This document shows, piece after piece, positions 13,240 through 15,797 of a stretch of 26,013 bases of DNA. The stretch is from positions 1 through 26,013 of the forward strand of contig JAFCDD010000007.1 of assembly GCA_017609845.1 (NCBI GenBank), in the 5' to 3' direction. The notes below the pieces were generated by a model, which saw nothing but the letters and a program-made list of their open reading frames with translations, had not been told where the DNA came from and did not search any database. How positions within the stretch are numbered: the first letter of the stretch is position 1; every line of letters begins with the position of its first letter. Origin of the DNA: Candidatus Woesearchaeota archaeon. Its GTDB lineage: Archaea; Nanobdellota; Nanobdellia; SCGC-AAA011-G17; JACPNG01. The position numbers were made by a program, and so were the translations under genes.

Positions 13240-15797
13240 TTTCCAATTACCTCTCTGATAAGATTTCTAATATCTATTGTTCCTTTCTCGCTCTTTGAAA
13301 CATCTATGCTATCCTCTCCATATTTAAATTGAATAACTGTTTTATTTGCATCTCTTACAGTATAATCATATTCAACTTTTAGGTCTTGTAAGGCATTAGC
13401 CAGTCTTCTGTAAAGATATCCAGATTTAGGTGTTCTTAATGCCATATCCATTAAAGAATCCCTTCCAGTCATAGAGCCAAAGAAAAATTCAACAGGGTCA
13501 ATACCTTTCTTAAAACCAGAACTTATAAATCCTCTGCTTCTGGGACTTAAATCTCCTTTTTTAAATAAAGATAAGGTCCTTCCATCATAACCATGCCTTA
13601 TTCTTTTGCCTCTTAATGCCTGTTGACCAACACTAGAAGCCATCATAGTTAAATTAAGAATACTTCCCTTTGCTCCAGAATGAAACATAATTCTTAATGG
13701 ATTTTCCTCATTAAGACTCTCTCCAATTATTTCTCCAATCTTATTTCTCACTTTATTTAAAGTCTGTAAAATTAATAATTCCAAAGATTCTTCGGCAGTC
13801 TTACCAGGTAAAATTTCTAATTTCTTAGCATTATAAGTTTTTATTAACTCATCAACACCATCCTCAGAGTCTTTTAATAATTTTCTTATTCTTATTAAAA
13901 TGTCTTGTTTTAAATCAATATCTTTTAAACTAGTACTAAAACCTTTGTAGAATAAAGCCTTTATACCAAGCCTAAAAAGCTTACTTAACAAATCCAAAGC
14001 AACATCTTCTCCGTAATCCCTATGAAGTTTTCTTATTAAATTACCTCTCTCTTCTCCAATAGATGCACCATCAATGTAACCCTTAATCAATTTTCCTTTT
14101 TTGATAATAACATCATCATTATCCTTTGTCTTACCAATGTATTCAAAATCGCCCGGCAATACAGAACTAAATATTTCCTTACCTTCAACAACATTATTAA
14201 AATTAGGAATCTTTTTTACTCCAATAGAAAACAATAACTGAACAGCCTCATCTTTATTAAAAACCATGCTCTTAGTAAGCAAGTAATTTCCAGAAACAGA
14301 ATCTTCTAGACAACCAATTATGTTTGTTCCATTCTTAGGAGTTATTAATTGGGTTTGCACTTGCATTAAAACTTCTGCTTCAGCCCTAGCTTCTTCTGTT
14401 TGTGGGATATGTAAATTCATCTCATCACCATCAAAATCACCAGCATAAGGAGTACATACAGCAGGATTTAATCTAAAAGATTTATAAGGAAGAATCTTAA
14501 TTTTATGAGCCATAATACTCATTCGATGTAAACTAGGTTGCCTATTAAATATCGCAATATCATTATTTATAATATGCCTTTCTATTACATATCCAAGCTG
14601 CAACTCTTCCAATAACTGTTCCTTTGTCTCATCTGTTATTTTTTTCTTTTTTCCATCAGGCCTTATAACATAATTACATCCAGGATATTTTTTAGGCCCC
14701 CTCTTAACAAATTCTTTCAATCTTTCTAAATTCCACTCAGTAACTCTTTCAGGGACAGTTAACTCATAAGCTATTGCTTTTGGAACACCAACTTCATTAA
14801 ACTTGATTTCAGGATCAGGACTAATTACAGTTCTTGCAGCAAAATTAACCCTCTTACCCGCAAGATTATATCTAAACCTTCCTTCCTTGCTTTTAACTCT
14901 TTCTGTTAAAGTTTTTAATGCTTGACCACTTCTATGTCTTGCAGGAGGTATTTGAGCGACAGTATTATCAAAATAAGTTGTAACATGATATTGTAATAGA
15001 TCCCATAAATCATCCACAATAACTTCTGGAGCTCCAGCATTAATGTTCTCAAACAACCTCTGATTAATTCTAACAATATCTCCAAGTTTATGTGTTAAAT
15101 CATCTTCCGACCTTTCTCCAGTATCTAATGTAATAGAAGGTCTCATTGTAACAGGAGGAATAGGCAATAATGTTAATATTAACCATTCTGGTCTTGCATA
15201 CTTTGGATTTAAACCAAGAATCTCAGTATCCTCGTCTGGTATTTTTTCAAACTTGGTTTTTATTTCAATAGGACTTAATTTTTTATCCCCTTCAAAAAAA
15301 GTAAGTGGTCTCTCTAATTTGACATTTACTTGTTTTGCCTTACAATGTGGGCACTTTTTAAGATTCTTTAGGGAATTAATAATCTCCTTTATTTTTTTTC
15401 TCTTAAAAAACAAACCATATCTTTTTTCAATATCCTTTAAAGAATCTAATTTAAGTTTTAATTCTTCATCACTCAATAAGATCCTTCCACAGTCTTTACA
15501 TGTGCTTCTTAAGAAATCTAAAATTGTTTTCGTATATTGAATATGAATAATAGGTCTAGCTAATTCAATGTAACCAAAATGACCAGGGCATTCTTTTAAC
15601 TTACTACCGCAAGTTTTACATCTCAACCCAGGGTCTATAACACCTAATCTTATGTCCATCAAACCACCATCAACAGGATAACCCTCTTTATCATATAATT
15701 CTGGAGTTACAACCTTCACAGAAGACATTTTTTTAATAAGCTTCGGACTAAAGAAACCAAATGAAATGCTGTTGATATTCTTATATACGTGTTCCAT
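13236..15797 (-). CDS. rpoA1: RNA polymerase subunit A' (Rpo1N)
   Basis: Zn sites CKTC..CPGHFG and CKDC..CPHC, GKRVNF, NRQPSLH, DFDGD and bridge helix RTPKSGYLYRRL. Confidence 0.98.
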   Translation of the reverse strand: MEHVYKNINSISFGFFSPKLIKKMSSVKVVTPELYDKEGYPVDGGLMDIRLGVIDPGLRCKTCGSKLKECPGHFGYIELARPIIHIQYTKTILDFLRSTCKDCGRILLSDEELKLKLDSLKDIEKRYGLFFKRKKIKEIINSLKNLKKCPHCKAKQVNVKLERPLTFFEGDKKLSPIEIKTKFEKIPDEDTEILGLNPKYARPEWLILTLLPIPPVTMRPSITLDTGERSEDDLTHKLGDIVRINQRLFENINAGAPEVIVDDLWDLLQYHVTTYFDNTVAQIPPARHRSGQALKTLTERVKSKEGRFRYNLAGKRVNFAARTVISPDPEIKFNEVGVPKAIAYELTVPERVTEWNLERLKEFVKRGPKKYPGCNYVIRPDGKKKKITDETKEQLLEELQLGYVIERHIINNDIAIFNRQPSLHRMSIMAHKIKILPYKSFRLNPAVCTPYAGDFDGDEMNLHIPQTEEARAEAEVLMQVQTQLITPKNGTNIIGCLEDSVSGNYLLTKSMVFNKDEAVQLLFSIGVKKIPNFNNVVEGKEIFSSVLPGDFEYIGKTKDNDDVIIKKGKLIKGYIDGASIGEERGNLIRKLHRDYGEDVALDLLSKLFRLGIKALFYKGFSTSLKDIDLKQDILIRIRKLLKDSEDGVDELIKTYNAKKLEILPGKTAEESLELLILQTLNKVRNKIGEIIGESLNEENPLRIMFHSGAKGSILNLTMMASSVGQQALRGKRIRHGYDGRTLSLFKKGDLSPRSRGFISSGFKKGIDPVEFFFGSMTGRDSLMDMALRTPKSGYLYRRLANALQDLKVEYDYTVRDANKTVIQFKYGEDSIDVSKSEKGTIDIRNLIREVIGK

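What the first reader, a model, noticed from the sequence alone, without database searches (positions are those of the whole stretch)
14424..14444. RNA polymerase catalytic loop reads AGDFDGD instead of NADFDGD
Seen: minus strand CCT TAT GCT GGT GAT TTT GAT GGT GAT GAG ATG = PY-AG-DFDGD-EM (residues 452-458). Asn to Ala needs two base changes and Ala to Gly one more, so a single miscall is unlikely. The three Mg-binding Asp and NRQP are intact. A further conserved Gln is changed (LED for xQD, 14304-14306) and the bridge helix reads DMA for DTA. Known: this Asn (E. coli beta' N458, yeast Rpb1 N479) contacts the NTP ribose and helps discriminate NTP from dNTP; the departures I know of are in specialised enzymes such as plant Pol IV/V and some phage RNAPs. 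Inference: a sole housekeeping RNAP with a remodelled substrate site and possibly relaxed sugar selectivity or fidelity.
Basis: partly seen in the sequence, partly recalled or inferred. Interest (0 to 1): 0.72.

Follow-up and report, generated by a model that had tools for sequence, protein, structure and literature searches.

The report
Archaeal RNA polymerase lacking catalytic-loop asparagine
The only RNA polymerase of this tiny DPANN archaeon really has Ala-Gly in place of the textbook "invariant" Asn-Ala beside its magnesium-binding aspartates, and this is one case of an apparently unreported natural variant (Gly or Ala for Asn) that has arisen and reverted many times in DPANN archaea.

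Summary
Window 14424-14444 (-) encodes AGDFDGD in RpoA' (Rpo1N), inside a normal rpoH-B''-B'-A'-A''-L30e-NusA-S12-S7 operon, and the gene is single-copy in the genome. It is not a miscall: related assemblies keep Ala-Gly with different codons. It is not unique either. A scan of one genome per GTDB species found 89 species, mostly DPANN, with a non-Asn residue here (GA 65, AA 16, AG 5 plus this one). In the window's own order 22 of 216 genomes lack Asn, from at least six independent losses, and whole genera are fixed for the change. A sister group (Pacearchaeota-like) shows gains and reversals. I found no paper that mentions these motifs. The main sugar gate (Arg of NRQP) and the trigger-loop Gln are intact, and E. 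coli N458S lowers NTP/dNTP selectivity only about 4-fold. That mutant also destabilises the pre-translocated state and raises intrinsic RNA cleavage, which are the more likely consequences here. Asn loss tends to travel with bridge-helix Thr→Val/Met and with trigger-loop changes (Asn→Lys here); this trend is suggestive but not significant.

The parts
13236..15797 (-). rpoA' (Rpo1N), 853 aa, largest catalytic subunit, N-terminal part
   Evidence: Translation. Five Rpb1 Pfam domains. E 3e-289 to the solved Pyrococcus Rpo1N 8cro_A. Single copy in the genome.
14424..14444 (-). Catalytic loop AGDFDGD (A452 G453 D454-D460), where canonical enzymes read NADFDGD
   Evidence: The same AG is found in relatives with different codons.
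14541..14543 (-). Arg419 of FNRQPSLH, equivalent to E. coli beta' R425 and yeast R446, the main 2'-OH gate; intact
   Evidence: It is R in all Asn-less loci where the motif was found.
14304..14306 (-). Glu498 in IGCLEDS, equivalent to E. coli beta' Q504 (E-site wall)
   Evidence: It covaries with B' residue 217.
13443..13445 (-). Bridge-helix Met785 (D-M-A), equivalent to E. coli beta' T786 and yeast T827
   Evidence: The Thr-to-Val/Met/Leu change tends to accompany Asn loss.
12100..13239 (-). rpoA'' (Rpo1C), 379 aa, carries the trigger loop
   Evidence: Translation.
13018..13041 (-). Trigger-loop NTP face Q67-M-T-L-K71-V-F-H74. Lys71 stands where the order normally has Asn (yeast N1082 position)
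   Evidence: Lys occurs only in AG genomes (G000, G012, G039).
15799..17604 (-). rpoB' (Rpo2C), 601 aa
   Evidence: Translation.
16948..16968 (-). Metal-B motif GYNMQDS, where canonical enzymes read GYNxEDS/A. Gln217 replaces the 'invariant' Glu (E. coli beta E813, yeast Rpb2 E836)
17606..19093 (-). rpoB'' (Rpo2N), 495 aa
   Evidence: Translation.
19086..19322 (-). rpoH (Rpb5 C-terminal domain), first gene of the operon
   Evidence: Pfam PF01191, E 3.5e-30.

Best explanation
This is a working, inherited, natural variant of the housekeeping archaeal RNA polymerase. The catalytic-loop Asn, which normally hydrogen-bonds the 3'/2'-OH of the incoming NTP and of the RNA 3' end, has been replaced by a small residue (Ala), and the neighbouring buried Ala by Gly. 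Shown: the variant is real, single-copy, sits in the normal operon, is conserved across related species with synonymous codon turnover, and belongs to a recurrent Gly/Ala-for-Asn polymorphism of DPANN archaea. Inferred from E. coli and yeast mutants: ribose anchoring by the static floor of the active site is weakened. This would give somewhat lower NTP affinity, only a small loss of NTP versus dNTP discrimination (because the Arg gate and trigger-loop Gln remain), a less stable pre-translocated state, and higher intrinsic transcript cleavage. Inferred from covariation: part of the ribose 3'-OH contact is taken over or re-tuned by the mobile trigger loop (Asn to Lys here; Asn to Asp, Asn to Ser or His to Arg in other Asn-less lineages) and by the bridge helix (Thr to Met here, Thr to Val elsewhere). 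The enzyme therefore remains fit rather than decaying.
For: Real and sole enzyme. Recurrence: 19 of the 120 nearest homologues lack Asn. 89 GTDB species carry it: GA 65, AA 16, AG 5 plus this genome, and one each of YA, GS and HA. In the order, 22 of 216 genomes lack Asn, with genera fixed for it: g80 4/4, g117 4/4, g118 6/6. In a phylum sample, 19 of 400 high-quality genomes lack it. There were at least 6 independent losses in the order and at least 14 state changes on a tree of 218 A' proteins. An AU test rejects a single Asn-less clade in the Pacearchaeota-like set, p 3.6e-6. Constraint: only Gly or Ala replace Asn. No Ser, Thr or Asp appeared among about 390 sequences read in full, which agrees with E. 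coli N458D being very slow (PMC2034486). Root-to-tip lengths of Asn-less lineages equal those of their sisters. Mutant data: N458S lowers selectivity about 4-fold at binding, and R425 is the main gate (PMC7862312). [quoted passage not shown] N458S and A459T raise intrinsic cleavage (bioRxiv 10.1101/2024.06.20.599782). T786V has a wild-type elongation rate. In Pol II, N479, Q1078 and N1082 surround the 3'-OH (PMC11388330). Covariation: in the Pacearchaeota-like set the states are NA/T 59, GA/V 51, GA/T 4 and NA/V 2, with a nested return to NA/T. Trigger-loop Lys occurs only in AG genomes. Asn to Asp arose twice with GA in family f19.
Against: No biochemistry exists for any of these enzymes; every kinetic statement is carried over from Ser, not Gly/Ala, substitutions in bacterial or yeast enzymes. 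The covariation is not statistically secure. Among independent pairs, the bridge helix changes the same way in about 5 of 10, with sign-test median p 0.125. No column other than 452 changes in all six losses. G001 (AG) and G014 (AA) keep the normal trigger loop, and G001 also keeps the bridge-helix Thr. The Pacearchaeota-like GA enzymes have an unchanged trigger loop. One Asn-containing genome (G207) also has trigger-loop Asp. The own genome is only 72.5% complete. Reads were not inspected.
Confidence: 0.6

Rival explanations
1. Nearly neutral drift. In slow-growing, small-population DPANN symbionts the Asn is dispensable, and Gly or Ala fix and revert by chance with no functional meaning or compensation.
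For: There are many gains and reversals. N458S is mild in E. coli and T786V behaves like wild type. Other 'invariant' active-site residues also vary in these clades: the metal-B Glu, the Q504 position and the trigger-loop His. The covariation tests are not significant.
Against: The replacement spectrum is narrow: 87 of the 89 scan species carry Gly or Ala, and Ser, Thr and Asp were never seen. The new codons are GC-rich in AT-rich genomes. Whole genera are fixed, with synonymous turnover. There is no rate acceleration. The trigger-loop Lys/Asp and bridge-helix Val changes recur in separate lineages.
Confidence: 0.25
2. One reading: the site is remodelled so as to relax sugar selectivity or fidelity substantially, so that dNTPs or modified NTPs are used.
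For: The Asn contacts the ribose OH groups. Two neighbouring residues and a trigger-loop residue are changed together.
Against: The Arg gate and trigger-loop Gln are intact everywhere. N→S changes selectivity less than 5-fold in two model enzymes. This is the only RNAP of a cell that must still make normal RNA.
Confidence: 0.08
3. Compensation for loss of the cleavage factor TFS: Asn loss raises intrinsic transcript cleavage in lineages that lack TFS.
For: E. coli N458S strongly raises intrinsic cleavage. G039 (AG, 99% complete) has no TFS zinc ribbon, and the own genome has only a sub-threshold match.
Against: 20 of 22 Asn-less genomes of the order have a clear TFS zinc ribbon, about the same fraction as Asn-containing ones (220 of 240 overall).
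Confidence: 0.03
4. Artefact or non-functional copy: a sequencing or assembly error, a pseudogene, or a contaminating or viral polymerase.
For: The window comes from a 61-contig, 72.5%-complete genome.
Against: The ORFs are intact in the canonical operon. The same residues occur in independent assemblies with different codons. The match to solved Rpo1N is E 3e-289.
Confidence: 0.02

Closest known systems
Canonical archaeal Rpo1N / RpoA' (e.g. Pyrococcus furiosus 8cro_A, Thermococcus kodakarensis 4qiw_A, Sulfolobus 2waq_A)
   Same: Full-length homology (E 1e-262 to 3e-289). Same Pfam domain set, same operon, DFDGD aspartate triad, NRQP Arg, and split A'/A'' and B''/B' genes.
   Different: Asn-Ala before the triad is Ala-Gly. 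The bridge helix reads DMA instead of DTA. The Q504-equivalent is Glu. The partner subunit B' has Gln for the metal-B Glu.
Laboratory mutants E. coli beta' N458S (also N458D, A459T, T786V) and yeast rpb1 N479S
   Same: The same positions are altered. They provide the only available functional data: mild loss of sugar selectivity, a destabilised pre-translocated state and raised intrinsic cleavage for N458S; a wild-type rate for T786V.
   Different: They are engineered single substitutions, to Ser rather than Gly or Ala, in bacterial or eukaryotic enzymes. The variant here is natural, fixed in lineages, and accompanied by other changes.
Plant Pol IV / Pol V largest subunits (NRPD1 keeps only DFDGD, NRPE1 only ADFDGD)
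   Same: Multisubunit two-barrel polymerases that have lost the Asn of NADFDGD while keeping the Asp triad (PMC2605557).
   Different: Those are extra, non-essential, specialised paralogues that exist beside Pol I-III. Here the Asn-less enzyme is the cell's only RNA polymerase.

Membership tests
Archaeal DNA-directed RNA polymerase subunit A' (Rpo1N) | Rpb1 domains 1-5 and full-length similarity to solved Rpo1N chains | tested here: met
   PF04997, PF00623, PF04983, PF05000 and PF04998 are precomputed for P0001. E 3.4e-289 to 8cro_A.
Archaeal DNA-directed RNA polymerase subunit A' (Rpo1N) | Metal-A aspartate triad DFDGD | tested here: met
   D454, D456 and D458 are present.
Archaeal DNA-directed RNA polymerase subunit A' (Rpo1N) | 'Universally conserved' Asn-Ala preceding the triad (NADFDGD) | tested here: not met
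   The window reads Ala-Gly. The same loss occurs in 89 GTDB species. This feature is evidently not defining for the family.
Archaeal DNA-directed RNA polymerase subunit A' (Rpo1N) | Conserved operon rpoH-rpoB-rpoA'-rpoA''-L30e-NusA-S12-S7 | tested here: met
Archaeal DNA-directed RNA polymerase subunit A' (Rpo1N) | Single housekeeping copy per genome | tested here: met
   One match in G000. One each in G001, G012, G034, G039 and G122, which are 85-100% complete.
Archaeal DNA-directed RNA polymerase subunit A' (Rpo1N) | Catalytic activity as an RNA polymerase | not testable with these tools
   Needs recombinant enzyme.
Specialised Asn-less two-barrel polymerases (plant Pol IV/V type) | An additional paralogue beside a canonical housekeeping enzyme | tested here: not met
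   No second A' was found in the own genome or in near-complete relatives.
Rpo2 / RpoB' metal-B site | Invariant Glu-Asp pair (GYNxEDS/A) | tested here: not met
   The window reads GYNMQDS. Glu is replaced in about half of the order.

The most novel reading that the evidence does not exclude
The catalytic-loop Asn, the bridge-helix Thr and the trigger-loop ribose-facing residue may form a co-evolving module that toggles between two workable designs of the NTP ribose pocket: NA/Thr versus Gly- or Ala-containing/Val-Met. On this reading DPANN archaea have switched between the designs repeatedly, in both directions, under selection, for instance from the nucleotide pools of obligate symbionts or from an unknown inhibitor aimed at the NTP site. 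Together with the Glu swap between subunits A' and B', it would mean the 'universal' multisubunit RNAP active site has several alternative natural solutions.
Probability: 0.2. Interest if true: 0.8.

Novelty: new variant of a known kind. Interest (0 to 1): 0.6.

Why it matters
NADFDGD is cited as universally conserved in cellular RNA polymerases (for example PMC13198411 and PMC2605557). Here at least 89 archaeal species run their only RNA polymerase without the Asn, and they gained and lost it repeatedly. This natural series (NA, GA, AA, AG, with or without bridge-helix and trigger-loop changes) can be used to test what the Asn contributes to ribose recognition, translocation and proofreading. 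It also shows that motif-based annotation or 'invariant residue' filters would wrongly flag these enzymes as defective. The apparent Glu swap between subunits bears on the debated role of the metal-B Glu.

Tried and rejected
1. TFS loss as the driver. The PF01096 zinc ribbon is present in 20 of 22 Asn-less genomes of the order, so this was rejected.

2. Metal-B Glu loss as a partner of Asn loss. GYNxQDS occurs just as often in Asn-containing genomes, so this was rejected. It pairs with A' position 498 instead.

3. 'LED' as a change linked to AG. The position varies across the clade, so this was rejected.

4. A scan of all columns of the four subunits for a substitution shared by all six Asn losses. 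None was found apart from position 452 itself. Trigger-loop position 71 was novel in three of the six clades: Lys in two, Ser in one.

5. Faster evolution of Asn-less lineages. Root-to-tip lengths are no longer than those of sister lineages.

6. Parsimony on a tree that included the scan loci. It was distorted because only Asn-less sequences had been sampled outside two groups, so it was discarded in favour of trees built from unbiased homologue sets.

7. Literature searches for GADFDGD, AADFDGD and AGDFDGD (0 papers) and for DPANN RNAP active-site variation (nothing relevant).

8. The role of the bridge-helix Thr in binding of nucleoside-analogue inhibitors. This could not be confirmed from the papers held, so it is not used as evidence.

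9. No structure prediction was run. The tools return no coordinates, so distances could not have been measured.

Full report
**Observation**

The minus strand of window 14418-14450 reads CCT TAT GCT GGT GAT TTT GAT GGT GAT GAG ATG, which translates to PYAGDFDGDEM. These are residues 450-460 of an 853-aa ORF at 13236-15797.

- The ORF carries all five Rpb1 Pfam domains.
- It matches solved archaeal Rpo1N chains at E about 1e-289.
- It sits in the standard archaeal operon. The order is rpoH (19086-19322), rpoB'' (17606-19093), rpoB' (15799-17604), rpoA', rpoA'' (12100-13239), L30e, NusA, S12, S7.
FNRQP is intact, IGCLEDS has Glu at 14304-14306, and the bridge helix reads DMA.

**Is it real and is it the only polymerase?**

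The window's genome (525 kb, 61 contigs, 72.5% complete) gives a single match to RpoA'. Five related Asn-less genomes that are 85-100% complete also give one match each.

The nearest homologues come from independent NCBI, JGI and Logan assemblies and read AG as well. Related genomes encode Ala-Gly with other codons: GCT GGA, GCA GGG and GCA GGA. That excludes a miscall and shows the two residues are kept while synonymous sites turn over. Reads could not be inspected.

**How common is it?**

- **Nearest homologues.** Of the 120 nearest homologues, 101 read NA, 9 AA, 5 AG and 5 GA.
- **All GTDB species.** I scanned one genome per GTDB species for P-Y-x-x-DFDGD-E-M, where the first x is encoded by a codon that does not begin with A. 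This found 89 species: GA 65, AA 16, AG 5 besides this genome, and YA, GS and HA once each. They are mostly MAGs named Woese-, Pace-, Micr-, Parv-, Nano- and Iainarchaeota. A few are labelled Methanomicrobia, Thermococci, Thermoplasmata or Marsarchaeota.
- **Own order.** Of 240 genomes, 216 carry the motif and 22 of these lack Asn. They fall in four families and nine genera, and some genera are fixed: g80 4/4 AA, g117 4/4 GA, g118 6/6 GA.
- **Phylum sample.** In an even sample of 400 genomes of the phylum that are at least 90% complete, 19 lack Asn, in 13 of 281 genera.
- **Replacement spectrum.** No Ser, Thr or Asp was seen at this position in about 390 sequences read in full. The scan pattern itself could not see Thr or AGY-Ser.
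- **Literature.** No paper in the library contains GADFDGD, AADFDGD or AGDFDGD. Papers on archaeal RNAP evolution that mention DPANN say nothing about it.

**Evolutionary pattern**

A tree of concatenated A'+B' from 95 genomes of the order, with trait columns removed, shows at least six separate losses. These are the window's own clade in family f1 (G000, G001 and G012 AG; G014 AA), G039 in f24 (AG), g67+g80 in f22, and g117, a pair within g31, and g118 in f19. Root-to-tip lengths of Asn-less lineages equal those of their sisters, so the protein is not decaying.

A Pacearchaeota-like group has fused A'+A''. Among the 120 nearest homologues of one of its Asn-less members, 62 read NA and 58 lack Asn. 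The rooted tree shows NA, then GA, then a nested 20-tip clade back at NA. An AU test rejects a single Asn-less clade (delta lnL 340, p 3.6e-6). One caveat applies: the group was named after the tree had been seen. On 218 A' proteins the Asn state changes at least 14 times.

**What travels with it**

*Bridge helix.* The Thr of D-T-A is E. coli beta' T786. The numbering follows from S793 and Y795 in the same helix.
- In the Pacearchaeota-like set the states are NA/Thr 59, GA/Val 51, GA/Thr 4 and NA/Val 2.
- On both the gain and the reversal, the tree passes through GA/Thr.
- In the window's order, Val or Met accompanies Asn loss in g118, G012, G014 and the window itself. It does not in g117, g80, g31, G001 or G039.
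- Among ten independent pairs the bridge helix changes the same way in about five and the opposite way in about 0.5. The sign-test median p is 0.125. This is suggestive, not proven.

*Trigger loop.* The order's normal NTP face is Q-M-T-L-N-[VT]-F-H, like Pol II. Changes in Asn-less lineages:

| Lineage | Catalytic loop | Trigger-loop change |
|---|---|---|
| G000 (window), G012, G039 | AG | Asn→Lys. Never seen in about 65 Asn-containing genomes |
| g117 and g118, independently | GA | Asn→Asp. One Asn-containing genome, G207, also has Asp |
| g80 | AA | L-N-T→I-S-S |
| g31 pair | AA | catalytic His→Arg |
| G001, G014 | AG, AA | none |
| Pacearchaeota-like | GA | none |

In Pol II the equivalent Asn1082, with Gln1078 and Asn479, surrounds the NTP 3'-OH (PMC11388330). 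A scan of every column of all four subunits found no change shared by all six losses.

Position 498 is E, H, D, T or A throughout the order, independent of the Asn state. The window's subunit B' reads GYNMQDS, so it lacks the 'invariant' metal-B Glu.

The two positions are complementary:
- **In the order:** (A'498 Glu, B'217 not Glu) 42; (not Glu, Glu) 32; (neither) 13; (both) 4. There are about ten changes of each on the tree. Independent pairs go the same way 3-4 times and never the opposite way.
- **Across the 89 loci from many DPANN groups:** Glu at A'498 always goes with a non-Glu at B'217 (22 of 22). A non-Glu at A'498 goes with Glu at B'217 in 34 of 37.

In E. coli both residues line the E-site/Mg2 region (PMC6237748). 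I read this as a relocation of a carboxylate between subunits. Their proximity was not measured here.

**Mechanism**

E. coli data give the best guide.
- R425 is the main gate against 2'-dNTPs.
- N458S lowers selectivity about 4-fold at binding and not at all at catalysis.
- N458S and A459T raise intrinsic cleavage.
- N458D is very slow, whereas T786V runs at the wild-type rate.

The Arg and the trigger-loop Gln are intact here and in all Asn-less relatives. I therefore expect a modest, not drastic, change of sugar selectivity. The main effects should be on NTP affinity, translocation balance and cleavage, partly retuned by trigger-loop and bridge-helix changes.

The idea that Asn loss compensates for a missing TFS fails. 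TFS is present in 20 of 22 Asn-less genomes.

**Verdict**

This is a new, apparently undocumented, recurrent natural variant of a known enzyme. It is of moderate to high interest to transcription enzymologists, and it is testable with existing recombinant archaeal RNAP systems.

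Noticed in passing
window 16948-16968 (-) with 14304-14306 (-); loci L002-L195: The metal-B Glu of subunit B' (GYNxEDS) is Gln here, and is Q/S/A/K/D/M/N in many DPANN genomes. It is almost perfectly complementary to a Glu at A' position 498 (E. coli beta' Q504 position). This looks like a carboxylate swap between the two largest subunits: 22 of 22 and 34 of 37 across the scan loci, and 42+32 against 17 exceptions in the order.
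   Followed up: partly
L002, L008, L010, L012, L030, L055, L056, L065, L075, L088 and others; proteins P0125-P0244: A Pacearchaeota-like group encodes RpoA as one fused A'+A'' protein of about 1130-1170 aa, and RpoB as one fused B''+B' protein of about 1085-1092 aa. The window's lineage has both genes split.
   Followed up: partly
L009, L053, L095 (G034, G198); L088; L042, L060; P0147: The catalytic trigger-loop His (E. coli H936, yeast H1085) is replaced by Arg or Leu in several lineages. All those seen so far are Asn-less, but no unbiased sample of Asn-containing trigger loops outside the window's own order was examined.
   Followed up: partly
window 11487-11690 (-) and 11705-11914 (-): The NusA-like gene between L30e and S12 appears as two short ORFs (69 and 67 aa) in different frames, 14 bases apart. 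Only the second hits the KH_5 domain. This may be a frameshift, an assembly error or a genuinely split gene.
   Followed up: no
genome G010 (same family), contigs C5, C32, C77: Three separate copies of the A' catalytic-loop motif lie on three contigs of one genome (contamination listed as 3%). This suggests a mixed bin rather than paralogues.
   Followed up: no
window 19835-21238 (-): A 467-aa ORF immediately upstream of rpoH has no Pfam match at E 0.001.
   Followed up: no
genomes G039 and G000: G039 (AG variant, 99% complete) has no TFS zinc-ribbon match, and the window's genome has only a sub-threshold one (E 4.4e-4). Nearly all other genomes of the order have a clear TFS.
   Followed up: partly
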